Origin: a virus
IMG/VR virus record: IMGVR_UViG_3300000301_000012
Location: 1-64,000 of that record
Strand: one strand, 5' to 3'
DNA length: 64,000 nt
This document shows positions 2,022 through 12,976 of this stretch, in pieces. Every line of letters starts with the position of its first letter. Positions within the stretch are counted from its first letter, which is position 1. The translations under genes were made by a program, and so were the position numbers. A model generated the notes under the pieces. The model was given only the letters and a program-made list of their open reading frames with translations. It searched no databases and was not told the origin of the DNA.

Positions 2022-2840
2022 TTACTTTTTATAATTTTGCCCAATCTCTAAACAATCATATATAAAATTATCCAAAATTTCTCTAGCATATTCACTTCTA
2101 ACCTTCGACTTTTTTAATTCTTTTTCGGTTCCATATTTCTTTAAAAATAACTGATAAAAAGATTCTAATTGCTCCATAAAATAATCTCTAAAAGTTTTGG
2201 CTTTATCCAATTCAACAGGCAAAGTTTTCAATTCTCTAAGAAAATCAATATAATTATTAGTAACTTTTAAAGAATATTCAAAATCATTTGAGCTATAATA
2301 ACGTTTTAAAAAATCATAAAGTCGAATAATGTGAACTAATTGTTTTGGGTCATATCCATATTTCTCAATAGTTTCTTTCTTTCCTTCCGTCGGTTTGCTA
2401 AAAAGTTTAACTTTACTTAGCGCCATTCCCCTAGAAACATTTGCAAGAGTTAAAGGGCTTCTATTAGCAATTTTATCTCTCTTTTTTAAAAGATTAAAAA
2501 CGGGTTCTGTAAATTTAGGATTATACATATAATAAGGAGTATAAAGAATCTCCAAGAAATTAATATTTCCTTTATAAAAAGAATTACATATTAATCTAAT
2601 ATCTTGAATTAGATTAAGTCCGCCACTCTCATTATCTTTCTCTTTTGAAATCTTTTTCTTATCGAGATACAACTCGCGCTTTGTAGGGAGAATAATAGTC
2701 TTTACATCTACATCACTTTGTTCAGTTTCAATTCCATAGTTTTGGGAGCCATAAAGACCCATATAAACAAAAGGATGGCTATCTTTATAAATATCTTTAT
2801 AAAATAAGCCCATCTCATTTAAAATATTTGTAACCTCCAT
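2022..2840 (-). CDS. Pol-beta-fold nucleotidyltransferase, RlaP-like
   Basis: The translation has GSQNYGIETEQSDVDVK, the GS...D.D motif of the predicted-nucleotidyltransferase (RNA-repair-associated RlaP) family. Stop is TAA. This is the first gene of the AT-rich part. Confidence 0.65.
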   Translation of the reverse strand: MEVTNILNEMGLFYKDIYKDSHPFVYMGLYGSQNYGIETEQSDVDVKTIILPTKRELYLDKKKISKEKDNESGGLNLIQDIRLICNSFYKGNINFLEILYTPYYMYNPKFTEPVFNLLKKRDKIANRSPLTLANVSRGMALSKVKLFSKPTEGKKETIEKYGYDPKQLVHIIRLYDFLKRYYSSNDFEYSLKVTNNYIDFLRELKTLPVELDKAKTFRDYFMEQLESFYQLFLKKYGTEKELKKSKVRSEYAREILDNFIYDCLEIGQNYKK

Positions 2841-2849
2841 ATATTCTCC

Positions 2850-3047
2850 TTACTCAACAAAATAATCAATACTATAAGTATTAATTGTATCTATTTGAAT
2901 AATACTTTCTGGATGTACTATTTGCATAATTTTAGCTTCTGCTTTCTTTTTCGCATTCCAATCTGTGTCAGCTATTACCATTAACATTTTTTCTTCTTCA
3001 GTCGTAGCTGTCTGATAATAAACTTTAATCTTATAAGCTGTTTTCAT
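2850..3047 (-). CDS. hypothetical protein (65 aa)
   Basis: ORF from the track with AGGAGACTAAGAA before the ATG and a TAA stop. Confidence 0.45.
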   Translation of the reverse strand: MKTAYKIKVYYQTATTEEEKMLMVIADTDWNAKKKAEAKIMQIVHPESIIQIDTINTYSIDYFVE

Positions 3048-3102
3048 TTCTTAGTCTCCTTTCCTTTTCTATTTATATTATACTAAAATTTTAAAATAAA
3101 AT

Positions 3103-3132
3103 CAAAAAGGGAGCCGAATTTCTCCAGCTCCC
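3103..3132 (-). terminator. rho-independent terminator (minus strand)
   Basis: Stem GGGAGC (3127-3132 complement) pairs with GCTCCC, followed by TTTTT on the minus strand. Confidence 0.5.
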
Positions 3133-3136
3133 TTAA

Positions 3137-3222
3137 GTATATGTCCGCAAACATATACCCCAATTTTTCTTAAATTGGGGTATATGTCCGTAAACATATA
3201 CCCCAATTTTTCTTAAATTGGG
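3137..3222. repeat. tandem 43-nt direct repeat (2 copies), each unit holding two hairpins
   Basis: The unit gtatatgtccgYaaacatataccccaatttttcttaaattggg occurs at 3137-3179 and 3180-3222 with one mismatch. Each unit folds as GTATATGT/ACATATAC and CCCCAATTT/AAATTGGGG. Confidence 0.8.
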
Positions 3223-3335
3223 TAATGTCATCCCATCAGACATTTATTAAGGCGCAGTAACGTTACGCCACCCTATTTAAATTTTAGAGATTAGTAAAAA
3301 TAGCTTCGCCACGTAAAGGCTCTCTAATGAAGCCG

Positions 3336-3421
3336 CGCCAGAGAGAGGATTCGAACCTCCAAGCCATTTCTGACCGGCACTTTTCAAGAGTGCTGCTCTC
3401 ACCATACTGAGCGACTCTGGC
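3336..3421 (-). tRNA. tRNA-Ser(UGA)
   Basis: Acceptor GCCAGAG/CTCTGGC. Anticodon stem GCACT/AGTGC with loop CUUGAAA. Long variable arm, T-loop TTCGAAT, no encoded CCA. Confidence 0.85.
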
Positions 3422-3429
3422 ATATAAAA

Positions 3430-3504
3430 TGGTACCCACACCCAGAATCGAACTGAGATAGCGGCCTTAGAAGGACCGAGTTCTATCCGTTGAACTATAT
3501 GGGC
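3430..3504 (-). tRNA. tRNA-Arg(UCU)
   Basis: Acceptor GCCCATA/TGTGGGT. Anticodon stem CGGTC/GGCCG with loop CUUCUAA. T-arm CTCAG-TTCGATT-CTGGG, encoded CCA. Confidence 0.85.
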
Positions 3505-3511
3505 ATATAAC

Positions 3512-3598
3512 TAGACATAGTGAAGGAATCGAACCCTCTCAAGTAAAATTTTACAGATTTTCTTTTTAACCAAAAAATTTTTGCTGTTACTATGTCTA
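3512..3598 (-). ncRNA. tRNA-like RNA (GUA anticodon-like loop, canonical T-arm, aberrant D region); member of the ACAGCAAUU-box family
   Basis: A 9-bp terminal stem TAGACATAG/CTATGTCTA is followed by the box TAACAGCAA and the hairpin AAAAT-CUGUAAA-ATTTT. T-arm is GAGGG-TTCGATT-CCTTC. No normal D-arm is present. Confidence 0.45.
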
Positions 3599-3599
3599 T

Positions 3600-3695
3600 T
3601 GGCGCAACCGAGTAGACTCGAACTACCACATCAGATTTCTCCGATTACTCTCAACTTAGCAGGTTGATTCCTTACCCAATTAGGATTACGGCTGC
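3600..3695 (-). tRNA. tRNA-Ser(GCU)
   Basis: Acceptor GCAGCCG/CGGTTGC. Anticodon stem TCAAC/GTTGA with loop CUGCUAA. Long variable arm, T-loop TTCGAGT, encoded CCA. Confidence 0.85.
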
Positions 3696-3702
3696 ATAAA
3701 CT

Positions 3703-3766
3703 AGGCGCACTAACATCATCTACAAATTTATGGCGCAGATTGTTAATAGAATTGCAGTAAGCGCCT
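3703..3766 (-). ncRNA. acceptor-stem-like hairpin spacer with conserved box (family member)
   Basis: Terminal stem AGGCGC(T)/(A)GCGCCT, with the box TTACTGCAATT directly after the 5' arm on the minus strand. Confidence 0.35.
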
Positions 3767-3793
3767 TTTAGATTTATTGGACTTAATTTCAAC

Positions 3794-3867
3794 TGGCAGC
3801 GGTAGATGGTTACGCTCCACCTCCAAAGGTGTCAAAGACCTTTGTACTACTATTATACGATACCGCC
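3794..3867 (-). tRNA. tRNA-Gln(UUG)
   Basis: Acceptor GGCGGTA/TACCGCT (G1-U72) with discriminator G. Anticodon stem AAGGT/ACCTT with loop CUUUGAC. Unusual T-loop AGCGTAA, encoded CCA. Confidence 0.75.
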
Positions 3868-3870
3868 ATA

Positions 3871-3947
3871 TGGACCAGCAGACGAGATTTGAACTCGCAA
3901 CATCCTACTTGGAAGGCAGGTGCTCTAGCCAACTGAACTACTGCTGG
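3871..3947 (-). tRNA. tRNA-Gly(UCC)
   Basis: Acceptor CCAGCAG/CTGCTGG. Anticodon stem CCTGC/GTAGG with loop CUUCCAA. T-arm GCGAG-TTCAAAT-CTCGT, encoded CCA. Confidence 0.8.
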
Positions 3948-3951
3948 ATAT

Positions 3952-4091
3952 TGGTACTAGCGGGTGGAATCGAACCACCGGCAACAGGTTTTGGTGAGTT
4001 AAAAAGGTCTTGCACCTTCATCTTTTTAAAGGTTTTACTTTTAAACTATTAACCCATAAGACCTGCCCCATCACCACTTGGGTACGCTAGT
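3952..4091 (-). tRNA. interrupted tRNA; becomes a perfect 76-nt tRNA-Ile(UAU)-type cloverleaf if the 64-nt insert is removed
   Basis: Acceptor ACTAGCG/CGCTAGT, D-arm CCCA-AGTGGTGA-TGGG, anticodon stem CAGGT/ACCTG, T-arm GGTGG-TTCGATT-CCACC, then A-CCA. The loop halves CUUAU and AA are separated by 3992-4055. Confidence 0.6.
3992..4055 (-). ncRNA. tRNA-shaped insert lacking an anticodon arm, nested in an anticodon loop
   Basis: Reads GGGTTAA-TA-GTTT-AAAAGTA-AAAC-(12 nt)-GAAGG-TGCAAGA-CCTTT-TTAACTC-A-CCA. It has a 7-bp acceptor stem, D-arm, T-arm, discriminator and CCA. Confidence 0.5.
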
Positions 4092-4099
4092 ATATAGAC

Positions 4100-4159
4100 A
4101 AGACACCTTTGTTTCACAAATTGGCCATTTGTTGCAAGAAAAATTGCTGTTAGTGTCTT
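4100..4159 (-). ncRNA. acceptor-stem-like hairpin spacer with conserved box (family member)
   Basis: Terminal stem AAGACAC/GTGTCTT, then box TAACAGCAATT. Inner hairpins are GCAA-TTTTTC-TTGC and ACAAA-TGGCCAA-TTTGT. Confidence 0.4.
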
Positions 4160-4161
4160 AA

Positions 4162-4236
4162 TGGTTGTGACAGAAAGAATCGAACTTTCATGACGGCGTT
4201 ATCAGCACCGCATACTAACCATTGTATTATGTCACA
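4162..4236 (-). tRNA. tRNA-Ile(GAU)
   Basis: Acceptor TGTGACA/TGTCACA. Anticodon stem CGGTG/CGCCG with loop CUGAUAA. T-arm GAAAG-TTCGATT-CTTTC, A-CCA. Confidence 0.85.
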
Positions 4237-4239
4237 ATA

Positions 4240-4313
4240 TGGAGGCCAACCTCAGAATCAAACTGAGAACGAGAGGTTACAAAGCTCTTGTTTTATCATT
4301 AAACTAGTCGGCC
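4240..4313 (-). tRNA. tRNA-Thr(UGU)
   Basis: Acceptor GGCCGAC/GTTGGCC, D-arm GTTT-AATGATA-AAAC, loop UUUGUAA (one C-C mismatch closes the anticodon stem). T-arm CTCAG-TTTGATT-CTGAG, encoded CCA. Confidence 0.75.
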
Positions 4314-4318
4314 ATAAC

Positions 4319-4398
4319 TAGACGCTATTAACTATTAAATTAAATATATAGGGTTATATTTAGACCAAGATATTTAAATAAATTGCCGTAAGCGTCTA
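4319..4398 (-). ncRNA. acceptor-stem-like hairpin spacer with conserved box (family member)
   Basis: Terminal stem TAGACGCT/AGCGTCTA, with the box TTACGGCAATT after the 5' arm on the minus strand. Confidence 0.35.
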
Positions 4399-4409
4399 AT
4401 AAAAATTTC

Positions 4410-4486
4410 AAAGCACAATTAAGTAATATTTATCTTCTTGTCACAAAGTATCTTAAACTTAAAGTTCAAATTGCTGAATGTGCTTT
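4410..4486 (-). ncRNA. acceptor-stem-like hairpin spacer with conserved box (family member)
   Basis: Terminal stem AAAGCACA/TGTGCTTT, followed by the box TTCAGCAATT. Confidence 0.35.
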
Positions 4487-4488
4487 AT

Positions 4489-4564
4489 TGGTGCGCCAGG
4501 CGGTACTCGAAACCGCGGTCCCTTGATTAAAAGTCAAGTGCTTTACCAACTAAGCTACTGGCAC
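4489..4564 (-). tRNA. tRNA-Lys(UUU)
   Basis: Acceptor GTGCCAG/CTGGCGC. Anticodon stem CTTGA/TCAAG with loop CUUUUAA. T-arm GCGGT-TTCGAGT-ACCGC, A-CCA. Confidence 0.85.
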
Positions 4565-4616
4565 AAAATGCGTGTTTTACTTCCCGCCGGAAGATAAATA
4601 TATTTCCCAATCCTAT

Positions 4617-5054
4617 TTAGTTCTCTACGTTAAGCTTCATATTCTCATAAATATCTTTAAACTTCATATCCTCATAAATATCTACAATATTATGAGAATC
4701 TTCCTCTCGTACCCTAGCTACTCGTTCACGTTCCTCCTGATCCATTTCCACTTCCATCAAATTGAAAAAATGTTCCATAAATCGGTGAAGAGCCTTAGTC
4801 CTATCCTTCTCATACTTCAAGGAAGCTCGACGAGCCGCCATAATACGACCGATTTCCTCGTTAAAAACATCACCAGGCGCGCACTTAGCAACACCAACAT
4901 ACTTCTTCTTTAGCTTCAATACTTCGTACAATACAACAGGATTAAAGAGGTAAGGATTTTTAGCTCTCTTCAAAACAAGCTTATATACATCCTTATCACA
5001 ATTGTCAATAGTTGCCTTAACGATACCTGCTTCCTTGTCTACAAAGTACTTCAT
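4617..5054 (-). CDS. hypothetical protein embedded in the tRNA array
   Basis: 145-aa ORF with AAAGGAGTTTAAATT before the ATG and a TAA stop. Confidence 0.6.
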   Translation of the reverse strand: MKYFVDKEAGIVKATIDNCDKDVYKLVLKRAKNPYLFNPVVLYEVLKLKKKYVGVAKCAPGDVFNEEIGRIMAARRASLKYEKDRTKALHRFMEHFFNLMEVEMDQEERERVARVREEDSHNIVDIYEDMKFKDIYENMKLNVEN

Positions 5055-5139
5055 AATTTAAACTCCTTTTCTTTTTTTAAGTTTGTATAACTATTATACT
5101 TATTTTTTGTAGAACTTTCAAATTTTTTCTATCAGATGC

Positions 5140-5222
5140 TGGTGCGTTTGACAGGACTCGAACCTGCAAGCCGAAGCAACAGAACCTAAATCTGTCGAGT
5201 TTACCAATTTCTCCACAAACGC
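5140..5222 (-). tRNA. tRNA-Leu(UAG)
   Basis: Acceptor GCGTTTG/CAAACGC. Anticodon stem ACAGA/TCTGT with loop UUUAGGU. Long variable arm TGCTTCGGCT, T-loop TTCGAGT, A-CCA. Confidence 0.85.
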
Positions 5223-5564
5223 ATATTAAGTGCCTAGCTACCTCGTAAAACTAGGCGGGCTAGTGCTTCTCACCCGTAGGCATTACCCTTACCTTATCGG
5301 TTTACATCCACACTATATCACCACTATTATTTAATGGGTAATTCGCAGCGAGGTTTTTAACGATAATCTTATATTTTCTGGACAACATAAAATTGCGCTA
5401 TTTATTCTTCCAAATTAGCCCTAAAAAGTTTCATCTTAATATGCTTGTTAGGAATCTGCGCCCGTTTTGTTATTCATAGCTTTACTTTTAGTTATAAGTT
5501 CCTAGGTTTTATAACTAAAAGTTACCAATATTCCGAATCCCACGGAATAATATAAGATTATCTT
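5223..5564 (-). ncRNA. unassigned structured non-coding block (about 340 nt)
   Basis: No ORF on either strand. A 13-bp long-range pairing joins GATAATCTTATAT (5549-5561) to ATATAAGATTATC (5362-5374). A 13-bp hairpin spans about 5483-5525. Further pairings are ATTACCC/GGGTAAT and GCCTAG/CTAGGC. Confidence 0.4.
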
Positions 5565-5641
5565 TGGTAGTCACTAACAGACTCGAACTGTTGACCTCCT
5601 CGGTGTAAACGAGGCGTTCTAACCAACTGAACTAAGCGACT
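5565..5641 (-). tRNA. tRNA-Val(UAC)
   Basis: Acceptor AGTCGCT/AGTGACT. Anticodon stem CCTCG/CGAGG with loop UUUACAC. T-arm AACAG-TTCGAGT-CTGTT, A-CCA. Confidence 0.85.
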
Positions 5642-5647
5642 ATATAA

Positions 5648-5676
5648 GTGACTAATTATTTTAATTTGCTAGTCAC
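5648..5676 (-). ncRNA. short hairpin spacer with conserved box remnant (family member)
   Basis: Stem GTGACTA/TAGTCAC with a 15-nt loop that begins GCAAATT on the minus strand. Confidence 0.3.
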
Positions 5677-5746
5677 CAACAAATAGATGTTTGGGACACA
5701 CACAGTGGAGGGCACGGTCAGATTCGAACTGACGACACGCTGGTTA

Positions 5747-6415
5747 TGGCGTCAACTATGAGATTTGAACTCATATCTTTTCCCATTCTATATCAGAGTA
5801 TTTTTGAATATCTTTTCTCTTTGACGGTAAATTATACTTTTTACACCATTTACGAACAGCATTATCTGAAACTTTAAACATTTTTCCAATTGTAGTAAAC
5901 GGAGTATTTCTTATTAAGGATTTTAATTCTTCTCTACTTATTATATTTTTTTCTCTTAAACATTTCTAACATAACCCTGTTTTATTATTTGCAATTTCTT
6001 TTTTACAAGAAGAACAATAATATTGATGTTTTTTTGGATTTTTTAATTCTTCTGCTATATTTTTGTCATAAATTCTTTTTTGCTCAAGATATTCTTTAGT
6101 ATAAAAACCATCATGAACTTCTCTATGACAATTTGCACATAATAAAATACATTTCTAAATTTCTTGTAAATCTTCTTCCAAATTATGACAAATTCCTTTA
6201 GAAGAAATTCCGTACTCTTTTTCTTCAGGTCTTATATGATGAAATTCTAATGCACTTTTGCTTCTATTATAGCCACAAATATTACATTTATCACCACAAA
6301 CCCTTATTAAATTTTCTTTTCTTCTTCGTCTAAAATCAGAAGTTGCCTAACTACTCATAAATTTCACCATCAAACAATAGAATACAAAGAAAAATATTTC
6401 TTATACTAAGCTGAC
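5747..6415 (-). mobile_element. tRNA-shaped shell carrying an HNH endonuclease gene, nested in an anticodon loop
   Basis: The 5' end reads GTCAGCT-TA-GTAT-AAGAA-ATAT and the 3' end ATGAG-TTCAAAT-CTCAT-AGTTGAC-G-CCA. The acceptor stem has 7 bp including one G-U. The ORF replaces the anticodon arm. None of the ACGG...CCGTGCYAA group I core seen in the other three introns is present. Confidence 0.5.
5771..6358 (-). CDS. HNH homing endonuclease (3 in-frame TAG)
   Basis: ATG at 6358 and TGA at 5773-5771. The translation has CGDKCNICGY...EFHHI...CANCHREVH. TAG falls in the context GLC-TAG-KC. Not in the ORF track because TAG breaks it. Confidence 0.8.
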
Positions 6416-6451
6416 ACAGCCAGCTGCTCTGACCAACTGAGCTACGCACCC

Positions 6452-6977
6452 ATATAATGCCCTGGTTGCCAATCCTTCTCTGGTACTCAGACCTCTGGAG
6501 CGGCCGGGCCAGCCGCAAGAGTTTCTTTAATAAGGGAAACTACATAAAGACCTCCCCATCTTTCGTTAGGGACACGCTGAGGTTTAAGACCTCCCCCGTC
6601 TGTCGTTAGGGGTCACGCCGAGATTTTCAGGCACGAGGTACTCAGTACACACCCCGCTATTACGAGCGCCCGATGATGGACGCACTTAGTTTTTTCTCCG
6701 CAGAGAGGATATACTTTAACCCGAACTAGTTCTAGGCCTTTTTACTTCTTTACGCACATAAAAGACCACATAAACAACGCGCCATTTTACGAATTATTTC
6801 CACAGTTTGGGAGCCATACAAAAATAGTAACGAGGGCTTCGTCAGAAAGTTCTTATGCGACAAGAACTTACAATGAACGCTTTGAGTTTTTTCCTCGGAG
6901 TAAACCATCAACTAAATTTCTCGTATACAGAAACTTAATCTATTTTACAATCCTAGAAAAACGTTCCAAAGATTTAA
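6452..6977 (-). ncRNA. large structured non-coding RNA candidate (about 525 nt; ROOL/GOLLD-like context, class unconfirmed)
   Basis: No ORF, and visibly GC-richer than its flanks. It has many hairpins (AAGTTCTT/AAGAACTT, GCGGC/GCCGC, GTTTC/GAAAC). The module CCC(C)TAACGANAGAYGGGG(G)AGGTCTT is duplicated. It sits flush between two tRNA-type ends. Confidence 0.55.
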
Positions 6978-7509
6978 TGGTGGGCCATCTTGGTATCGAA
7001 CCAAGCGAGTCACAATGACAGCGGCTTTTGGAGATAGAATTTAGATTTGAACTAAAAAGTTGCAAGTATTAAATCCTTGGTTATTGGAATTTGGGATAGT
7101 TCTTAAAACTATTCTTGAAAGATTTCCAGATTTACGAATCTCTTCAACGGGAATTACAAAAAGATTCTTCATATCATCAGCACAAAATAATAAATCTACT
7201 GGATGATTTAGTAAATTATCATAAACTTGTCCCTTTGTTCCGCCTTTGTTTACCAATGAAATCTCCTTATTTTTACTAGCTGTAAATTTACATTGTACTG
7301 TTTGAAAAATATCATCTTTTTCTACAACTAAATCATACCATTGTGTATCATTAATTGGTAAACTAACAGTATAACCATTGGAACCAAAATATGCGATAGC
7401 AAGACTTAATCCCGCTCTTCCTTTATCCCTATTATTTAATAATTGCATAACCCTCCTCCATTAGGATTCTACCACAGGCCGCCCCGTCTCCTTAACGGAA
7501 TACTGACCC
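6978..7509 (-). mobile_element. tRNA-shaped shell carrying a PD-(D/E)XK endonuclease gene (free-standing)
   Basis: The 5' end reads GGGTCAG-TA-TTCC-GTTAA-GGAG and the 3' end CTTGG-TTCGATA-CCAAG-ATGGCCC-A-CCA, with 6 of 7 acceptor pairs. The architecture matches 5747-6415. Confidence 0.4.
7041..7448 (-). CDS. PD-(D/E)XK homing-endonuclease-like protein (I-Ssp6803I-like family)
   Basis: 135 aa with GGAGGAGGG before the ATG. The translation KGRAGLSLAIAYFGSNGYTVSLPINDTQWYDLVVEKDDIFQTVQCKF matches the D...(D/E)xK pattern of the small PD-(D/E)XK intron endonucleases. Confidence 0.7.
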   Translation of the reverse strand: MQLLNNRDKGRAGLSLAIAYFGSNGYTVSLPINDTQWYDLVVEKDDIFQTVQCKFTASKNKEISLVNKGGTKGQVYDNLLNHPVDLLFCADDMKNLFVIPVEEIRKSGNLSRIVLRTIPNSNNQGFNTCNFLVQI

Positions 7510-7596
7510 ATATAATGGCGGTTGGAGCTTATTTTAATTCGACGTCCGCCAACTCGAATGAAGGTTGAGTTATTGTCATTATACCTACAATATGAC

Positions 7597-7672
7597 TGGT
7601 CACGCCATCGGGAATCGAACCCGAATTACGGGATTGAAAGCCCCGTTTCCTTACCGTTTAGAAGATGGCGCG
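7597..7672 (-). tRNA. tRNA-Glu(UUC)
   Basis: Acceptor CGCGCCA/TGGCGTG. Anticodon stem CGGGG/TCCCG with loop CUUUCAA. T-arm TCGGG-TTCGATT-CCCGA, A-CCA. Confidence 0.85.
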
Positions 7673-7906
7673 ATAGAAATAGGAGTGACCGCCCTCCTAT
7701 TGGGTCTGTTGTTCCACTCCTATCGGTAGTTTTTAAATGGTGTTACCGACACCGATTTGCGTCAGGAGGAGTATCCTCCCCAATGGAATTTGTTGATACA
7801 ATCATAGAACCATCTCCTTCCAATAAACGCTTTTTAAGACTTAGCGTGGTACGCATTATTAAGAGGCGTGCTAAGTTCATTTCTACAAGAGGAACTTCCC
7901 ACTTGG
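7673..7906 (-). ncRNA. unassigned structured spacer immediately 3' of the suppressor tRNA
   Basis: No credible ORF. Hairpins are AGGAG-TGACCGCC-CTCCT, GGAGGA-GTA-TCCTCC, CGGTA...TACCG and CTTAGC...GCTAAG enclosing GCGT-GGT-ACGC. Confidence 0.35.
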
Positions 7907-7982
7907 TGGCAGCGGTTCTCAGAATCGAACTGAGTCCATCGCTTTTAGAGAGCGAGGCGCTAAACCGTTACGCTAAACCGCA
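7907..7982 (-). tRNA. amber suppressor tRNA(CUA), Gln-like identity features
   Basis: Anticodon stem TCGCT/AGCGA with loop CUCUAAA; the anticodon is complementary to plus-strand tag at 7946-7948. D-arm GCGT-AACGGTTTA-GCGC and T-arm CTCAG-TTCGATT-CTGAG. Acceptor TGCGGTT/AACCGCT has a U1-U72 mismatch, G2-C71 and discriminator G. CCA is followed by a second CCA. Confidence 0.85.
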
Positions 7983-8014
7983 TCATTCAAGTTTTTGAAT
8001 GGAACTTTAACCAT

Positions 8015-8089
8015 TGGGTGCAGAGGAAGGATTCGAACCTTCGATCTCCGACTCATGAGGACGGTGAGATACCACTTCTCTACTCTGCA
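8015..8089 (-). tRNA. tRNA-Met(CAU) (elongator Met or Ile2; not resolvable by eye)
   Basis: Acceptor TGCAGAG/CTCTGCA, loop CUCAUGA, T-arm GAAGG-TTCGAAT-CCTTC, C-CCA. The anticodon stem has one U-U mismatch. Confidence 0.75.
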
Positions 8090-8097
8090 ATATAGAC

Positions 8098-8162
8098 AAG
8101 GCACATAAGTAACAATAATTTCTCACCCAAGAAAAGCTGTTATTAATTGCTGTTTGCGCCTT
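8098..8162 (-). ncRNA. acceptor-stem-like hairpin spacer with conserved box (family member)
   Basis: Terminal stem AAGGCGCA/TGTGCCTT (one G-U pair), followed by the box AACAGCAATT. Confidence 0.35.
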
Positions 8163-8214
8163 TCTTTATCTTACATAAATATTATATAAGATTTTTAAAA
8201 ACTTTTCAAATTTC

Positions 8215-8337
8215 AAGATACCGTTAGAATAATTATTGCCTTACCATTTAGGCGATTTCTAAAATGATTAGAAAGTAAGAATCGAACTTACAATAGATAA
8301 TTTCCAAAAAATAATTATTGGTTGCTGTAGGTATCTT
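8215..8337 (-). ncRNA. circularly permuted, capped tRNA-like RNA on a basal stem (YrlA/Y-RNA-like architecture)
   Basis: The minus strand reads: basal AAGATACC, box TACAGCAA, then ATTAT, CTATT, T-arm GTAAG-TTCGATT-CTTAC. The acceptor TTTCTAA-TCATT-TTAGAAA is closed by a loop. Then come TC, D-arm GCCT-AAATGGTA-AGGC, A, ATAAT and basal GGTATCTT. Confidence 0.55.
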
Positions 8338-8341
8338 TAAC

Positions 8342-8415
8342 TGGCAGAAAACGTCGGTGCTGCCCCGCTATTCCACCTCCCAAAGATGGCGTGTTACTGT
8401 TACACTACGTTCTCT
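8342..8415 (-). tRNA. tRNA-Pro(UGG)
   Basis: Acceptor (A)GAGAAC(G)/(C)GTTTTC(T). Anticodon stem CCATC/GGTGG with loop UUUGGGA. The T-arm is weak and non-canonical (loop GGCAGCA). It abuts tRNA-Ala. Confidence 0.7.
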
Positions 8416-8491
8416 TGGTGGAACTAAGGGGATTCGAACCCCTAACCCTCTGCGTGCAAAGCAGATGCGCTTCCAATTACGCTATAGCCCC
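8416..8491 (-). tRNA. tRNA-Ala(UGC)
   Basis: Acceptor GGGGCTA/TAGTTCC carries the G3-U70 alanine identity pair. Loop UUUGCAC, T-arm AGGGG-TTCGAAT-CCCCT, A-CCA. Confidence 0.9.
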
Positions 8492-8640
8492 ACGTTTAGC
8501 GGCCGTTGCCATCCGCCATTCGTATCCTCTTATGCAGCAACGAACCGAGGAATTATAGGTTTTTATTTGTAAGCTACCTACAAACTTACTGGTAGGAGTG
8601 GCGGGACTCGAACCCGCACGACCACAAGCCAGCTGATTTT

Positions 8641-9387
8641 CATACTACTCTATGTCACCATAGCCGCATTACTGCGTTGTAGTCTGGACTATGTCTTCAC
8701 CATATCTCTCAACTTAGGTGGTTGGTATATAGTCTCTACACATTTATTTGGTGCAGTTCTTTCCACGATAGGAATCTGTTAAAGCGTGACAATTTGGACA
8801 TAATAATTCATAATTTTCTATACTATTATTATGTCTATTGCCATCTTTATGATGTAACTCTAATGGAATTGGATTGCCAAGCCATTCGGTTAAACCGCAA
8901 TGTTCACACTTATGTTCTTTATACCCTTCTTCTAACAACTTTATTCTAACTTTGTTTGATTGAATATCTTTGCTATTTTCAAGATATTGAACTAATGTCA
9001 TTTTTTCTTTAACTTTAGAATAACCTTTTCCACTTTGATTTCCATCATACTTTAAGCCTAATCTCTCTAATACGCTATTAATAGTTTTAGGATTACATCC
9101 TAATTCTCTTGCCATATAAGCTTTAGATCTGTTCTCAGAAATCCATCGTTCAATTTCTGCCTTACGCTCTAAAATATCTGTTCTCATAAGTATCACTCCT
9201 TTTTTTTCTTTCTACTTATAAGTAGAAAAGGAACACACTTATTACAGAATTTTGATGCGTAATCCAAAATTTAGCACGGCGTTCTGTGTTTGCCTTCGCC
9301 GTTTAGCCAACTTCTACTTTCACAATTTCTTGTGAAGCACTCTCTATCCAAAAGATAGCACTTCTTTTTAGGAAGTGAAACACATTA
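8641..9387 (-). mobile_element. group I intron with HNH homing-endonuclease ORF
   Basis: The 5' splice site follows U and the 3' splice site follows G. The core element GGCTAAACGGCG...ACGCCGTGCTAAATT resembles the P4-P6/P7 region of phage group I introns such as T4 td. The insertion site is the classical tRNA-Leu(UAA) position. Confidence 0.7.
8744..9187 (-). CDS. HNH homing endonuclease (intron-encoded)
   Basis: The translation has CEHCGL...LELHHKDGNRHNNSIENYELLCPNCHA. AGGAGTG lies 6 nt before the ATG at 9187. Stop is TAA. Confidence 0.85.
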   Translation of the reverse strand: MRTDILERKAEIERWISENRSKAYMARELGCNPKTINSVLERLGLKYDGNQSGKGYSKVKEKMTLVQYLENSKDIQSNKVRIKLLEEGYKEHKCEHCGLTEWLGNPIPLELHHKDGNRHNNSIENYELLCPNCHALTDSYRGKNCTK

Positions 9388-9587
9388 AAGTCAGCAGCGT
9401 ATACCGATTTCGCCACACTCCCATAGCGTCCCTCTCGTTTCATAGCTCATTGAGCCGATTTTGCAGGCTTGGGACTGCCGATGGCACGATTAACGCTAAA
9501 TGCCGAACTGAGAGAGTGAAAGGAAAGGAAAAATCTCTCTCATTCAACATTAATATTATATCAAAATTTTTAGTTTATTTCAAATTT

Positions 9588-9722
9588 TTAATACTCATCA
9601 TCTAAAAAGTAGAATGGATCATCCTGCTCTTCATTAATCCAGAAAGCGCCGCCTGAAAAGCCATATTCGCCAAAAAAATCATCATACTGAATATCATCGA
9701 ATCCATCAAAGTAATCTCCCAT
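9588..9722 (-). CDS. small acidic hypothetical protein (44 aa)
   Basis: AAAGGAGC lies before the ATG at 9722 and the stop is TAA. The translation begins MGDYFDGFDDIQYDDFFGEYG. Confidence 0.35.
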   Translation of the reverse strand: MGDYFDGFDDIQYDDFFGEYGFSGGAFWINEEQDDPFYFLDDEY

Positions 9723-9768
9723 TTTTAAGCTCCTTTCTTAACTTTCTGTATATATTATACAGAATTTT

Positions 9769-9906
9769 TTATTCATTTTCAAATTTTTTCTTGTGTTTTT
9801 CTTTTCGAGAATATTTCTTTTTATTAGGTATAATCTTCGTAGAAGGATTGAGGCCACTCCAATCCTTACGAATCTTTTTAAAAGTTTCGTAAGTTTTATT
9901 CTCCAT
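9769..9906 (-). CDS. small basic hypothetical protein (45 aa)
   Basis: GGAAGGTGAG lies before the ATG at 9906 and the stop is TAA. Confidence 0.35.
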   Translation of the reverse strand: MENKTYETFKKIRKDWSGLNPSTKIIPNKKKYSRKEKHKKKFENE

Positions 9907-9951
9907 TTCTCTCACCTTCCTTTAATATTATATATAAAAATTAAAGAAAAC

Positions 9952-10269
9952 TCAAATTTTTTCCATCTCTTTTTTATCTTGAGTAATTGCTTCCGCACGT
10001 GTATTAAGAAGTTTAATGAACTGACTTACTTCTTTTGACTTCTTAAAGATGGCGACTGGATATTTATGACCTTTGCCGATAATTTCCGCACCCAATTCAT
10101 CGCGTGCCATACGAAGATATTGTGCATAGCTAAGACCCATTACTCGTGCAGGAATAATATTATAACTTCCTGTTGTATATTTTAAGTTGAAATTGTCAAA
10201 GTTGGCTCTAATTGTATAGTGTTCATTTTGGATAGGATACTCATCAAGATAAAAATATTCTTTTTTCAT
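9952..10269 (-). CDS. hypothetical protein
   Basis: Track ORF trimmed to the ATG that follows GGGAGGAG. Stop is TGA. Confidence 0.55.
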   Translation of the reverse strand: MKKEYFYLDEYPIQNEHYTIRANFDNFNLKYTTGSYNIIPARVMGLSYAQYLRMARDELGAEIIGKGHKYPVAIFKKSKEVSQFIKLLNTRAEAITQDKKEMEKI

Positions 10270-10574
10270 AGAGTCATCTCCTCCCAAAGTTCTTCAATTT
10301 CAATTTCTTCTTTTTGACTTAGTACACATAAGTCGCCATAATTCTCAAGTCCTCTAAACATTTTAAGAACATCTTCAAAAGGAGGAAGTTCATCACGACT
10401 AAATGTTTTCTTGGGTTTATTCTGCGCCGGCTGGTAATTTGGAATAATATACTTTTTTACTGTAGTAGGAGAGGGAGAACCACCCATAGCTCTACTAACA
10501 CCAGCATAAGTTCCAATTTTTAAATAAAGTTCATTAAGTTCAATTATTTGCTCTTGAGTAATTTTACTTGCCAT
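10266..10574 (-). CDS. hypothetical protein (possible HTH)
   Basis: Track ORF trimmed to the ATG that follows AAAGGTGAG. Stop is TGA. Confidence 0.55.
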   Translation of the reverse strand: MASKITQEQIIELNELYLKIGTYAGVSRAMGGSPSPTTVKKYIIPNYQPAQNKPKKTFSRDELPPFEDVLKMFRGLENYGDLCVLSQKEEIEIEELWEEMTL

Positions 10575-10622
10575 TTTTCTCACCTTTCAATAAATATTAT
10601 ATAAAAAATTTAAAAGAAAATC

Positions 10623-10648
10623 AAAAAAGGAGCTTCCGAAGAAGCTCC
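10623..10648 (-). terminator. rho-independent terminator (minus strand)
   Basis: Stem GGAGCTTC-CGAA-GAAGCTCC is followed by TTTTTT on the minus strand, just after the TAA of the vWA gene. Confidence 0.7.
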
Positions 10649-10654
10649 CTTATA

Positions 10655-12130
10655 TTAAACTTTACCAATCCAAACGCAATCATACATAGGATTATTAAGA
10701 GTTTCAATCATAACATCCCAACCAGTCTTACCGTTCAACGCAGCAGTCAGTTCTTTAAAAGAAGAAGGAGAACCGCCACTTACATGGATAAGATCAGGAC
10801 TATTACCCAAGAAAGTATTGCTACGAGCGTAAACATTCCAAAGAACTAGCTTAGGAAGATTAAAACCGTATTTAGCAAATTTCTTCCTCTGAATTTCTAC
10901 GAAATCATCATTAATATTATCTCTTTGAGAAATCCAGTCAATTTCCATATCAGAAATAACGATAATAGCTTTAGGCATTTCATCGTTAGGAATCTTATAG
11001 TCAATACCAGTTCTCAATACTAAATTGAAAGCTTCATTTAAATCAGTATTATATCCAAAATCCGTCCCTTCGGCCTTTACTATTTTTTGATAAATGTCGT
11101 CACTCTCTTTAAGAGTAATAAAATGAGGATTATCAGTAAAAGTCATGTAAAGATTATGGAAATAACCTTTATTTCTTTCAGCAAAATAAACTGCCAAACT
11201 AGTAGACATTGCCATAGGACGTCCAGACATAGAACCAGATACATCAGCCATAACAATATAGTTATTTTCACCTTCGACATAATTAGGAAGTCCATTCCAC
11301 TGAGCCTGGAGTAAATCTCTAGCTTGCATATTACAGCTACTAATTCTATCTGATTTTTCCTTAAGGTCGTAAGGATAAAGGACAGAACTATTGACTTTAG
11401 ATTCGCCAGTCTTTAAACCTGCAACATATTCATTAAATCTATCTTCATCATGTCTACGGAAAGCATCGGAATAATTCTTCATAGCATAAGAAGGAACATT
11501 ATCATAAATAATTTCATCCCAATTATTCGCAGACATATCTCTCTCAACAATTCGAATAGCATGACGCAACCTAGACAGAGCTTTACGATAAGTTCTGCTA
11601 GTCATACCCAACTCACCAATGGCGCGCCGTGCAAGATGAATAGTCTCAGGAGAAGAAGCATTTTCAGAAGGCATCCACTTACCCAGAAGACTTACAGAAT
11701 TGCCCTTAGCGCAATTAACTAGATCTTCTTTAAAGGTTTCCTTAATCAAATCCCACATTACCTTCTCGCATTTTGTTCCAGTAAGAACAAAAAGAGAATC
11801 CCAACGATTAAAATGGGGAATCAACTTAATATTATTCTCTACATATTTAGGCGCAATATTTGCCAAAGTTTTTAGACAAATACGGAAAGTTCTGCGCTCA
11901 CCTAAACCGCCACGAATGTTACCGGCATAAAATAACATCTTAGTAGTCAATTCAGGATTTTCTCTAAAAGAATTTGTAAACATTTCACTAATGTCTTTCA
12001 CACTTCGACTTCTCAAAGCACCGATGACACCAAAAAGAGATAAAACATTACTATCCAAACAGGAATAAGCGTTCATTCCATTTTCAGTAAACTTATCGGT
12101 AGTATTCTTAGCGGCTTGTGCAAAATTCAT
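10655..12130 (-). CDS. DUF2828-type protein with C-terminal vWA domain (Ro60/TROVE-like architecture)
   Basis: 491 aa. The N-terminal region reads TENGMNAY...LFYAGNIRGGLGERRTFR. The C-terminal vWA domain has the MIDAS motif DVSGSMSG. The TROVE-plus-vWA order matches Ro60. Confidence 0.75.
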   Translation of the reverse strand: MNFAQAAKNTTDKFTENGMNAYSCLDSNVLSLFGVIGALRSRSVKDISEMFTNSFRENPELTTKMLFYAGNIRGGLGERRTFRICLKTLANIAPKYVENNIKLIPHFNRWDSLFVLTGTKCEKVMWDLIKETFKEDLVNCAKGNSVSLLGKWMPSENASSPETIHLARRAIGELGMTSRTYRKALSRLRHAIRIVERDMSANNWDEIIYDNVPSYAMKNYSDAFRRHDEDRFNEYVAGLKTGESKVNSSVLYPYDLKEKSDRISSCNMQARDLLQAQWNGLPNYVEGENNYIVMADVSGSMSGRPMAMSTSLAVYFAERNKGYFHNLYMTFTDNPHFITLKESDDIYQKIVKAEGTDFGYNTDLNEAFNLVLRTGIDYKIPNDEMPKAIIVISDMEIDWISQRDNINDDFVEIQRKKFAKYGFNLPKLVLWNVYARSNTFLGNSPDLIHVSGGSPSSFKELTAALNGKTGWDVMIETLNNPMYDCVWIGKV

Positions 12131-12166
12131 TTGACATTTCTCCTTTTACTCAATAAAGTAAAAGCT

Positions 12167-12277
12167 AGACGCAATAGCTCCAAAGAAGGGACTCGAACCC
12201 TTAAATACTGAATTTAACGTTCAGAGCTTTTTCCTTTTAAGCTACTTCGGAAATCTCTCGCTTCGCTGTTCGCGTCT
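12167..12277 (-). ncRNA. stem-enclosed tRNA-like RNA directly upstream of the Ro60-like gene
   Basis: Basal pairing AGACGC (12277-12272 complement) with GCGTCT (12172-12167 complement). The box-like GAACAGCG follows the 5' arm. It encloses the cloverleaf at 12178-12251. Confidence 0.45.
12178..12251 (-). tRNA. tRNA-like cloverleaf with UUA in the anticodon position and G33 (probably not a decoding tRNA)
   Basis: Acceptor TCCGAAG/CTTTGGA and D-arm GCTT-AAAAGGAAA-AAGC. Anticodon stem CTGAA/TTCAG with loop CGUUAAA. T-arm AAGGG-TTCGAGT-CCCTT, no CCA. Confidence 0.5.
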
Positions 12278-12389
12278 TAACTTTTCTGTAATTATTATCT
12301 CAAGATTTTCATTATTTTTCAAATTTTAAAAAGAAAAGAGAAAAGTTGAAACTTTTCTCCTTTTAATTATAATTATTTTTCATTTTATA

Positions 12390-12842
12390 TTAGCCAACTG
12401 TGGTACTTTCTTCAATTATTACATTGCTTTCATCAACTATTTCTTCTGTTTGTGGTAATTGAATTGCTTCAACCGTAGTTGTAGTAGGAGTAGCTACGGT
12501 AGTTGTTTCGGGAATTGTATATTCTACAGTCATATTTTCACTTTTAATCCGAATAACATCAGTTGCATTTTTAACAAGACCAATTAATTCAGATACAGCA
12601 GAACTTCCACCCATAAAAACTAGCGCTGTTAGTATCTATCCCATTATAGATACCTCTGCTATTAAACCTAGTCCAACTAAAATATCCAGTGAAAAACAAA
12701 AAGCACAAGCAAAAGAAAGAATTGCGGAAATTCCAACTGTTATATATTTACTATAAGGAACATTAACCCATAATTCTTTAAGTCTATCTATTATATACCA
12801 AATAATAACGCTCATCGCGCCAACTAAAAATAACATATCCAT
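12390..12842 (-). CDS. holin-like membrane protein (1 in-frame TAG)
   Basis: Track ORFs 12636-12842 and 12390-12614 share a frame and are joined only by TAG at 12638-12636; I checked that no TAA or TGA lies between them. The N-terminal half has two hydrophobic segments. Stop is TAA. Confidence 0.6.
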
Positions 12843-12916
12843 TTATCATTACCTCCTAATAAAAAGTCGTTAATATTATTATAATCTCTAGTAAATTTGC
12901 TTTTACTTAAAAAATA

Positions 12917-12925
12917 TGATATAAT
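12917..12925 (+). promoter_or_regulatory. extended -10 promoter element (TGATATAAT)
   Basis: TGnTATAAT lies about 50 nt upstream of the first plus-strand gene at 12977. Confidence 0.4.
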
Positions 12926-12976
12926 ATAATAAAATGAATAAGTATATTTATTAAATAATTAAAAAGGAAGGATAAT

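What the first reader, a model, noticed from the sequence alone, without database searches (positions are those of the whole stretch)
3512..8162. Family of covarying acceptor-stem-like hairpins with a conserved ACAGCAAUU box interleaved between tRNAs
At least nine elements share one plan: 3512-3598, 3703-3766, 4100-4159, 4319-4398, 4410-4486, 5648-5676, 8098-8162, 8215-8337 and 12167-12277. Each has a 6-9 bp terminal stem whose sequence differs between copies while base-pairing is maintained. Examples are AGACATAG/CTATGTCT, AAGACAC/GTGTCTT, AGACGCT/AGCGTCT, AAAGCACA/TGTGCTTT and AAGGCGCA/TGTGCCTT. Directly after the 5' arm comes the conserved box (U)WACAGCAAUU. The interiors vary from 15 nt to full tRNA-like domains. 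Most copies are packed within a few nt of the neighbouring tRNA ends. Compensatory changes across copies argue for a functional RNA structure rather than plain spacers.
Basis: seen in the sequence. Interest (0 to 1): 0.75.

Follow-up and report, generated by a model that had tools for sequence, protein, structure and literature searches.

The report
Y-RNA-like partners of a phage Ro protein
The hairpins scattered through this phage's tRNA cluster are real: they belong to a widespread, uncatalogued family of small RNAs that always travels with a phage protein shaped like the Ro60 RNA quality-control ring, so they are most likely that protein's Y-RNA-like partners.

Summary
Eight of the nine listed elements are real members of one RNA family on the minus strand. 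The ninth (5648-5676) is only a plain hairpin.

The shared plan is a 6-10 bp terminal stem, consensus 5'-U-AAGRCRC...GYGYCUU-G-3'. It is followed on the 5' strand by the single-stranded box ACAGCAA, then a variable interior.

Evidence:
- The stem covaries strongly and strand-specifically.
- One copy (E9) is the 5' leader of ORF 10655-12130. That ORF is Pfam DUF2828, and its predicted fold matches full-length Ro60/Rsr.
- In 40 of 60 related loci an element lies just upstream of this gene.
- A search for the RNA motif alone recovers the gene in 30 of 69 stem-bearing loci, against 2 of 50 stemless matches.
- The pairing recurs in Bacillus phage Tsamsa, Listeria A511, a mycobacteriophage and a Felix O1-like phage. 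It is absent from the phage T5 tRNA region.
- E8 and 12 relatives are circularly permuted tRNA mimics laid out like bacterial YrlA.

The canonical Ro-binding motif GNCGAA is replaced by ACAGCAA, and no Rfam family matches.

Best reading: Y-RNA-like RNAs released from tRNA operons that dock on a divergent phage Ro ring. Binding itself is untested. This is a new variant of a known kind.

The parts
3512..3598 (-). E1. Stem UAGACAUAGU/ACUAUGUCUA, box AACAGCAA, then A/U hairpins, then a T-arm (GAGGG-UUCGAUU-CCUUC) stacked directly on the terminal stem, giving a minihelix-like shape.
   Evidence: Weak tRNA-Sec hit only (24 bits). The anticodon-like loop is CUGUAAA here but CUGGAAA in the close relative L003 (DUF2828 protein 95% identical).
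3703..3766 (-). E2. Stem AGGCGC/GCGCCU, box variant UUACUGCAAUU, one internal hairpin.
4099..4160 (-). E3. Stem UAAGACAC/GUGUCUUG, box UAACAGCAAUU, two small hairpins. This is the short form of the family.
   Evidence: No Rfam match even in a 71-nt search.
4317..4400 (-). E4. Stem AUUAGACGCU/AGCGUCUAGU, box variant UACGGCAAUU.
   Evidence: fold z-score -4.55
4409..4487 (-). E5. Stem UAAAGCACA/UGUGCUUUG, box variant UUCAGCAAUU.
   Evidence: The UCAGCAA variant recurs in Lachnospiraceae loci.
8098..8162 (-). E7. Stem AAGGCGCA/UGUGCCUU, box AACAGCAAUU. It is the first RNA after a TTGAAA-17-TATAAT promoter.
8215..8337 (-). E8. Stem AAGAUACC/GGUAUCUU, box UACAGCAA, then a circularly permuted tRNA-like domain: T-arm, a 7 bp acceptor-like hairpin closed by a loop, and a D-arm. 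The layout is that of YrlA.
   Evidence: Rfam YrlA full-length alignment, 25.9 bits, E 7e-4, below the gathering score of 69; 13-sequence consensus, 21 of 23 pairs with compensatory changes
12167..12277 (-). E9. Stem AGACGCGA/UUGCGUCU (one G-U pair), box ACAGCGAAG, enclosing a complete tRNA-like gene (12177-12251, anticodon UUA, with G where U33 should be). It lies in the 5' leader of the DUF2828 mRNA.
10655..12130 (-). Gene for a 491-aa DUF2828 + DUF7788 (vWA-like) protein with a Ro60/Rsr-like fold. It is the proposed protein partner of the RNAs.
   Evidence: (PHROG 850 'RNA-binding protein')
12294..12322 (-). Sigma-70-type promoter (TTGAAA-17-TG-GATAAT) driving E9 plus the DUF2828 gene.
   Evidence: consensus match only
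10626..10651 (-). Intrinsic terminator closing the E9-DUF2828 transcription unit.
8181..8209 (-). Sigma-70-type promoter (TTGAAA-17-TATAAT) at the head of the E7-tRNA operon.
3107..3134 (-). Intrinsic terminator at the end of the tRNA/element array.

Best explanation
The elements are a family of Y-RNA-like small RNAs.

Proposed mechanism:
1. They are transcribed as part of the phage's tRNA operons. One copy is instead transcribed as the leader of the Ro-like gene's mRNA.
2. They are set free when RNase P and the 3' processing enzymes cut out the neighbouring tRNAs (inferred).
3. The constant part of each RNA is the terminal stem AAGRCRC/GYGYCUU plus the adjoining single-stranded ACAGCAA on the 5' strand. 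This part is the docking site for the phage's DUF2828 protein, a divergent Ro60-type ring (inferred from co-occurrence, position and analogy with Ro60-Y RNA).
4. The variable part is a plain hairpin, a T-arm minihelix, a permuted tRNA mimic or a whole tRNA-like body. It is an effector module that tethers the ring to tRNA-handling or RNA-decay enzymes, gates the ring, or serves as a decoy (inferred).
5. The system would then serve tRNA/RNA quality control and counter-defence during infection (inferred).
6. The copy in the gene's own leader may also allow autoregulation (speculative).

Shown here: the RNA family, its covarying structure, its strand, its tight genomic coupling to the Ro60-fold gene, and the YrlA-like tRNA mimicry of E8.
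For: 1. Structure.
- Of 369 distinct gene-strand boxes in 61 related loci plus the window, 34% have a flanking stem of at least 7 Watson-Crick pairs. Three controls give 4-7%.
- Seven of nine pairs show double changes, and covariation is far above shuffled and slid controls (pair counts).

2. Protein.
- The ORF is DUF2828 + vWA-like.
- The AlphaFold model has pLDDT 78.
- Its top seven PDB matches are all full-length Ro60/Rsr/TROVE chains, E 6e-7 to 8e-5, over about 510-550 aligned columns.

3. Coupling.
- An element lies within 450 nt upstream of the gene in 40 of 60 loci. In most it ends 18-57 nt before the start codon. Protein identity in these loci runs down to 34%.
- In the reverse test, the 5' RNA pattern alone gave 123 matches in viral contigs. 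Seventy-two have GTGTCTT within 175 nt downstream, against 3 of 123 in the upstream control window.
- A DUF2828 gene is present in 30 of 69 stem-bearing fragments against 2 of 50 stemless ones.
- The same pairing occurs in Tsamsa, A511, mycobacteriophage AvadaKedavra and Salmonella phage Mushroom and in Lachnospiraceae genome contigs, presumably prophages.
- It is absent from the first 50 kb of phage T5, which holds the T5 tRNA region. No DUF2828 homolog is found in that stretch either.

4. Y-RNA likeness.
- The RNAs have a terminal stem with a conserved 5' strand and no conserved 3'-side sequence. This mirrors Ro60 mainly reading the 5' strand (PMC4201824).
- E8 aligns end to end with Rfam YrlA.
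- Thirteen such RNAs share a T-arm, a closed acceptor-like hairpin and a D-arm.

5. Literature.
- A P100-like Listeria phage shows very abundant unannotated transcripts near its tRNAs, upstream of the homologous gene. Its authors suggested these may be Y RNAs (PMC12282133).
- The Bas63 homolog gp130 is Ro60-like and counters the Ppl defence system (PMC11482910).
Against: - No binding data exist for any DUF2828 protein with any of these RNAs.
- The canonical Ro-binding motif GNCGAAN0-1G (PMC4201824) is absent. ACAGCAA is only loosely similar to it; 9% of copies read ACAGCGA.
- The protein does not hit Pfam TROVE by sequence, and the fold match is moderate (TM about 0.5).
- E8 scores 25.9 bits against a gathering score of 69 for YrlA.
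- Co-occurrence could partly reflect shared descent rather than function.
- Twenty of 60 loci have no element within 450 nt upstream of the gene, although most carry elements elsewhere.
- Only one negative-control phage (T5) was examined.
Confidence: 0.72

Rival explanations
1. The stem-box is a cis-acting processing or stability signal of phage tRNA operons. It would be read by a host or phage nuclease or another protein, and the DUF2828 protein would merely be a neighbour in the same gene module.
For: The elements sit 2-11 nt from tRNA ends. Many lie kilobases from the DUF2828 gene. Thirty-nine of 69 stem-bearing fragments show no DUF2828 gene within the stretch fetched.
Against: Copies sit immediately next to the gene even where no tRNA is near, for example in mycobacteriophage AvadaKedavra and in many metagenomic loci. 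The T5 tRNA region has none. Minimal 35-nt copies occur in the gene's leader. tRNA-mimic cargos are hard to explain as processing signals. The fetched fragments were short relative to their contigs.
Confidence: 0.13
2. The elements act only as translational or autoregulatory operators and titrating decoys for the DUF2828 protein, with no effector role for the variable interiors.
For: In most of the 40 loci that have an upstream element, it ends 18-57 nt before the start codon. E9 lies between the promoter and the Shine-Dalgarno sequence and is followed by a hairpin overlapping the Shine-Dalgarno sequence, which I read by eye from the sequence.
Against: The window has eight copies, and the highly conserved tRNA-like modules show covariation. 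That argues the interiors are selected for something. This reading overlaps with, rather than excludes, the main explanation.
Confidence: 0.08
3. They are decayed tRNA genes (pseudo-tRNAs) or remnants of tRNA duplications, with no function of their own.
For: E1 keeps a T-arm. E9 encloses a tRNA-like gene. E8 has D- and T-arms. The elements lie in a tRNA array.
Against: ACAGCAA is invariant and the stem is constrained across phages of Bacillota, Actinobacteria and Proteobacteria, including a GC-rich mycobacteriophage. Compensatory changes are common. Short forms have no tRNA features.
Confidence: 0.03
4. It is a DNA-level signal (promoter, recombination or homing site) or a small self-cleaving ribozyme or intron.
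For: Homing endonuclease genes and promoters are nearby. In L001 the stem is closed by a GAAA loop inside two tRNA-like genes, which looks intron-like.
Against: There is strong strand bias, and G-U pairs are tolerated without A-C pairs. The arms differ between copies. No Rfam ribozyme or intron family matches. No conserved core exists beyond 7 nt. Promoters are separate, recognisable sites.
Confidence: 0.04

Closest known systems
Bacterial and phage YrlA-type Y RNAs (Rfam RF02553; Chen et al. 2014, PMC4201824)
   Same: They are encoded beside a Ro60-fold gene. The 5' and 3' ends pair into a stem whose 5' strand carries the conserved motif. E8-type copies carry the same permuted tRNA mimic in the same order: T-arm, closed acceptor-like hairpin, D-arm. 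The 7 bp acceptor-like hairpin is the length that allowed RNase P cleavage of M. smegmatis YrlA.
   Different: The protein-binding module is AAGRCRC + ACAGCAA instead of GNCGAAN0-1G. The partner protein is DUF2828, not a Pfam TROVE protein. The Rfam score is far below threshold. Most copies have no tRNA-like domain. There are up to eight copies per genome, interleaved with tRNAs.
Yrl1 and Yrl2 of Thermus phage phiLo with phiRo60 (PMC12135203; PDB 9KOP, 9L5Y)
   Same: A phage-encoded Ro60 ring has two small stem-internal loop-stem RNAs encoded just upstream of its gene. These phiLo structures are the best structural matches of the window's protein.
   Different: The phiLo RNAs were picked by the CGAA motif and are bound by a canonical Ro60. 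Here the motif differs and binding is untested.
Stable RNAs of unknown function in the phage T5 tRNA region (RNAI, RNAIII, RNAIV, RNA1, RNA2, RNA3, as annotated in NC_005859). Similar RNAs in the T4 tRNA cluster are known to me only from memory.
   Same: They are small stable RNAs, some tRNA-like, interleaved with tRNA genes and presumably released by tRNA processing enzymes.
   Different: The first 50 kb of T5 has no stem-box element in its tRNA region and no DUF2828 homolog, so they are a different kind of RNA.
Vertebrate Y RNAs bound by Ro60
   Same: The terminal helix is formed by the two ends and is recognised sequence-specifically, mainly on the 5' strand. Variable loops act as effector modules.
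   Different: There is no sequence similarity, no bulged-C helix, different biogenesis (operon processing rather than Pol III), and no La-binding U tail.

Membership tests
YrlA / bacterial Y RNA (RF02553) | Encoded next to a Ro60/Rsr (TROVE + vWA) gene | tested here: met
   E9 is in the leader of ORF 10655-12130. The predicted fold matches full-length Ro60/Rsr. Caveat: there is no Pfam TROVE hit; the family is DUF2828.
YrlA / bacterial Y RNA (RF02553) | Conserved GNCGAAN0-1G (CGAA) motif near the 5' end | tested here: not met
   The box is ACAGCAA in 91% of copies and ACAGCGA in 9%. E9 reads ACAGCGAAG, which does not fit G-N-C-G-A-A.
YrlA / bacterial Y RNA (RF02553) | tRNA-like domain with T-arm, closed acceptor-like hairpin and D-arm | tested here: met
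   Met for E8 only. E1 has only a T-arm. E2-E5 and E7 have none.
YrlA / bacterial Y RNA (RF02553) | Reaches the Rfam gathering score | tested here: not met
   E8 scores 25.9 bits against 69. The other elements give no hit.
Y RNA in the functional sense | Physically bound by a Ro60 protein | not testable with these tools
   Only genomic coupling is shown.
tRNA (RF00005) | Cloverleaf scoring above the gathering score, with a canonical anticodon loop (U33) | tested here: not met
   E1-E5, E7 and E8 are not called as tRNAs. The gene inside E9 scores 54 bits, but its loop is C-G-UUA-A-A (G33). Its L002 counterpart is C-A-GUA-A-A (A33).
Known self-cleaving ribozymes, introns and other Rfam families | Match to any Rfam 15 covariance model | tested here: not met
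   There are no relevant matches at E up to 10 over 3000-13000 or on E3 alone.
T5-type stable RNAs of tRNA clusters | Shared sequence or structure motif with the annotated T5 RNAs | tested here: not met
   There is no stem-box element in the T5 tRNA region.

The most novel reading that the evidence does not exclude
The stem plus ACAGCAA may be a universal 'handle'. Through it a phage Ro-like ring would hold an interchangeable set of cargo RNAs: plain hairpins, acceptor/T-arm minihelices, permuted tRNA mimics, and even tRNA bodies with open acceptor ends (L001 5640-5900). This would make a programmable RNP that presents tRNA look-alikes to host tRNA-targeting defences or repair enzymes. It would be the RNA half of the anti-defence activity reported for the Bas63 homolog against Ppl. 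Some virions may carry the RNP in with them, since the Listeria phage homolog was found in purified particles (PMC12282133).
Probability: 0.25. Interest if true: 0.85.

Novelty: new variant of a known kind. Interest (0 to 1): 0.68.

Why it matters
DUF2828 'Ro-like' proteins occur in at least 706 sequenced phage records, including Felix O1-like, A511/P100-like and Tsamsa-like phages and mycobacteriophages. They also occur in many Lachnospiraceae genomes.

Two recent papers guessed that such phages must have Y RNAs but could not point to them (PMC12282133, PMC11482910).

This family gives a concrete, searchable RNA signature in genetically tractable phages. Three questions become directly testable:
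- What does a phage Ro ring bind?
- Why are tRNA mimics kept inside tRNA arrays?
- How does the Bas63 homolog defeat the Ppl defence?

It also explains part of the unannotated 'spacer' DNA in phage tRNA clusters and flags some 'suppressor tRNA' calls, such as the tRNA(UUA) here, as probable mimics.

Tried and rejected
1. Rfam at gathering and permissive thresholds found nothing for the short elements. It gave only a sub-threshold YrlA hit for E8 and a weak tRNA-Sec hit for E1.

2. Megablast of the array against cultured phages found no match.

3. I built a covariance model (R1) from a fixed-length pseudo-alignment of stem + box + 3' arm. It cannot span the variable interiors and gave only partial or spurious hits in the window. 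I abandoned it in favour of an explicit box-plus-stem scan with controls.

4. I looked for a pairing partner of the box inside the elements. Nothing is conserved on the 3' side, and there is no consistent complement by eye, so I treat the box as single-stranded.

5. I tried reading the elements as odd tRNAs with the box as a D-arm. I rejected this because there is no consistent D-stem partner and 35-nt forms exist.

6. Retron ncRNA, type III antitoxin repeats, BHB or group I introns and terminators were considered from memory and dropped. There is no RT adjacency at the elements, no tandem repeats, no conserved catalytic core and no U-tract.

7. A stem-only search (AAGRC...GYCUU without the box) is swamped by chance hits in this AT-rich DNA, so the box is essential to the definition.

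Full report
**What is there.** The window carries a tRNA array on the minus strand (3335-8491, plus a tRNA-like gene at 12177-12251). Read on that strand, eight of the nine listed elements share one plan.
- The terminal stem is 6-10 bp. Its 5' arm usually starts (U)AAGRC or UAGAC, and its 3' arm ends GYCUUG or GUCUAG.
- The box ACAGCAA follows within 0-2 nt of the 5' arm. Variants are ACUGCAA, ACGGCAA, UCAGCAA and ACAGCGA.
- The interior varies.

The ninth element (5648-5676) is a plain 9 bp hairpin without the box or the AAGRC start, and I exclude it. The 9-mer alone is not enriched in the window. The combination of box, flanking stem and conserved stem ends is found only in the tRNA region and only on the tRNA strand.

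**Is it more than chance?** I fetched 61 loci that encode relatives of the neighbouring protein.
- ACAGCAA occurs 214 times on the gene strand and 56 times on the other strand.
- Without using any information about the 3' arm, 34% of 369 distinct gene-strand boxes have a flanking stem of at least 7 Watson-Crick pairs. The opposite strand, shuffled downstream sequence and upstream windows give 4-7%.
- The 5' consensus from 144 copies is U-A-A-G-R-C-R-C-N-W-ACAGCAA. Nothing is conserved on the 3' side except the complementary arm followed by G.
- On 86 non-redundant copies, none from the window or its close relative L003, 7 of 9 pairs show double changes. There are 149 doubly changed cells against 37.9 +/- 6.9 in shuffles (0 of 500 reach it). 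The covariation score is 0.586 against at most 0.154 when partners are slid.
- Because those copies were chosen for having a stem, the percentage paired is circular. The compensatory pattern and one search are not.
- G-U pairs occur and A-C pairs do not in the seven core pairs, so the helix forms in a transcript of this strand.

**The neighbouring gene.** E9 sits between a sigma-70-type promoter (12322-12294) and ORF 10655-12130, which ends at an intrinsic terminator.
- The ORF is Pfam DUF2828 + DUF7788 with a weak vWA hit, and PHROG 850 'RNA-binding protein'.
- It has no sequence match in the PDB.
- Its AlphaFold model has mean pLDDT 78.
- The seven best PDB matches of the model are all full-length Ro60/Rsr/TROVE structures: phage phiLo Ro60, D. 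radiodurans Rsr, Xenopus Ro60 and human Ro60. E-values run from 6e-7 to 8e-5 over about 510-550 aligned columns, and isolated vWA domains follow far behind.
- It is therefore a divergent Ro60-type protein. Some mycobacteriophage records already call homologs 'Ro-like RNA binding protein'.

**Coupling of RNA and gene.**
- In 40 of 60 loci an element lies within 450 nt upstream of the gene. In most it ends 18-57 nt before the start codon. Protein identity in these loci goes down to 34%.
- The smallest copies are 35-36 nt hairpins.
- For the reverse test I scanned viral contigs with the RNA's 5' pattern alone and got 123 matches. Seventy-two have the exact complementary GTGTCTT within 175 nt downstream, against 3 of 123 upstream.
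- A DUF2828 gene lies in 30 of 69 stem-bearing fragments and in 2 of 50 stemless ones, although the fragments are much shorter than their contigs.
- In cultured phages, elements sit next to the gene in Bacillus phage Tsamsa (five copies in and around the tRNA array), Listeria phage A511 (three copies just upstream), Mycobacterium phage AvadaKedavra (three copies just downstream, in a GC-rich genome) and Salmonella phage Mushroom (three copies between tRNAs).
- In Lachnospiraceae genome contigs (presumably prophages) the outer stem changes to UGUGAC...GUCAUG while the box stays the same.
- The first 50 kb of phage T5, which holds a large tRNA region with annotated stable RNAs, has no stem-box element in that region and no DUF2828 homolog.

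**The interiors.**
- E8 folds into a terminal stem, a long second stem, a T-arm, a 7 bp hairpin in the acceptor position and a D-arm. It aligns over the whole Rfam YrlA model at 25.9 bits, E 7e-4 locally, below the gathering score of 69.
- Thirteen such RNAs come from gut phages, Tsamsa, the mycobacteriophage and the Felix O1-like phage. They give a consensus in which 21 of 23 pairs carry compensatory changes, with ACAGCAA and the T- and D-loop signatures invariant.
- E1-type copies place a T-arm directly on the terminal stem.
- E9 encloses a whole tRNA-like gene whose anticodon loop lacks U33. Its counterpart in L002 reads GUA with A33. The ARAGORN call 'tRNA-Stop (tta)' is therefore probably a mimic, not a suppressor.
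- In L001 the same stem is closed by a GAAA loop and sits in the anticodon region of two tRNA-like genes with perfect 7 bp acceptor stems. L055 has a copy with the stem-box in place of the acceptor stem.
- The constant handle with exchangeable cargo is the defining property of the family.

**Interpretation.** This anatomy is that of Y RNAs. The ends pair into a stem whose 5' strand is conserved, the interior varies and often mimics tRNA, and the genes lie beside a Ro60-type gene (PMC4201824, PMC12135203).

I therefore read the elements as Y-RNA-like partners of the DUF2828 ring. They would be released from tRNA operon transcripts by the enzymes that mature the flanking tRNAs. The stem-box would be the docking site and the interior an effector or decoy.

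The protein-RNA contact, the processing and the physiological role are inferred. The role is suggested by two things:
- RNA-repair genes lie nearby: RlaP at 2022-2840, and RtcB and an RNA ligase in A511.
- The Bas63 homolog counters the Ppl defence (PMC11482910).

A multi-omics study of a P100-like phage reports very abundant unannotated transcripts near the tRNAs upstream of the homologous gene. It found the protein in purified virions and proposed Y RNAs without identifying them (PMC12282133).

**What argues against membership in known families.** The canonical motif GNCGAAN0-1G is not present. The protein is not a Pfam TROVE member. Rfam thresholds are not met. The finding works like a Y RNA system but is not a member of YrlA as currently defined.

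**Rivals.** The alternatives are listed with their evidence in the rival explanations:
- a tRNA-operon processing signal unrelated to the protein;
- an operator-only role;
- decayed tRNAs;
- a DNA-level signal or a ribozyme.

The first is the only serious one. It is weakened by copies that flank the gene where no tRNAs are near and by the absence of the elements from T5.

**Verdict.** The identity is a new, widespread Y-RNA-like family tied to DUF2828 Ro-like proteins. It is a new variant of a known kind, of good interest because it is immediately testable in model phages.

Noticed in passing
window, whole; tRNA(CUA) 7907-7982 (-); in-frame TAG at 12636-12638 (-): The phage probably reads TAG as sense in part of its genome. 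Treating TAG as a sense codon raises coverage by ORFs of at least 150 aa from 53% to 81% (37 to 52 ORFs). ORFs 12636-12842 and 12390-12614 are in one frame, separated by a TAG.
   Followed up: partly
window 12177-12251 (-); L002 9880-9955: The 'tRNA-Stop (tta)' inside E9 has G at position 33. The homologous gene in L002 has anticodon GUA with A33. It is likely a tRNA mimic derived from tRNA-Tyr rather than an ochre suppressor.
   Followed up: partly
window 12135-12165 (-): A hairpin CUUUUACU-UUAUUG-AGUAAAAG overlaps the Shine-Dalgarno sequence of the DUF2828 gene right after E9. It is conserved in L002 and L003 and may be a translational control element.
   Followed up: no
window 5700-6460 and 6972-7500 (-): Two tRNA-like genes appear to be split by long insertions. 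One insertion contains a PD-(D/E)XK endonuclease ORF (7041-7448). There is a weak Rfam tRNA hit at 6379-6451. These may be intron-containing tRNAs.
   Followed up: no
window 6460-6960 (-): A GC-rich, apparently highly structured non-coding stretch lies between tRNA pieces. It has no meaningful Rfam match.
   Followed up: no
window 3948-4095 (-): A roughly 140-nt tRNA-like gene has an encoded CCA end and a long insertion. Rfam calls only 3995-4055 as tRNA (40.9 bits), and ARAGORN misses it.
   Followed up: no
window 8585-8830 (-) with ORF 8744-9196 (-): A T-arm plus acceptor 3' end with encoded CCA lies downstream of an HNH/HTH ORF. There are weak tmRNA (15 bits) and group I intron (20 bits) hits.
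   Followed up: no
window 9426-9496 (-): A sub-threshold match to the type-P1 twister ribozyme (34 bits against a gathering score of 67, E 2e-4) lies in a structured intergenic region.
   Followed up: no
window 7839-7875 (-): A match to the abiF RNA motif lies just under its threshold (36.8 against 37 bits, E 8e-4).
   Followed up: no
L045-L051 and L056, about 300 nt upstream of the DUF2828 gene (e.g. L047 9577-9690): A long A/U-rich stem-box RNA contains ACCUCCUUU, identical to the anti-Shine-Dalgarno end of 16S rRNA.
   Followed up: no
window 18132-19874, 21801-22325, 22343-22906 (-); L002 4227-5330; L003 2528-3580: Three proteins have Mtd_N (major tropism determinant) N-termini, and relatives carry a reverse transcriptase nearby. 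This suggests a diversity-generating retroelement.
   Followed up: partly
window 2022-2840 (-): An RlaP-family nucleotidyltransferase (RNA-repair associated) lies just beyond the end of the tRNA array.
   Followed up: partly
L264 (NC_041923.1, Salmonella phage Mushroom) 7540-11600: The tRNA genes are shown on the strand opposite to the one ARAGORN finds. Either the record's annotation or the tool's strand conversion for this reverse-complemented locus is wrong.
   Followed up: yes
L001 5640-5900: Two tRNA-like genes with perfect acceptor stems carry the stem-box, closed by a GAAA loop, in place of the anticodon loop. This is a reverse permutation of the E8 layout.
   Followed up: partly
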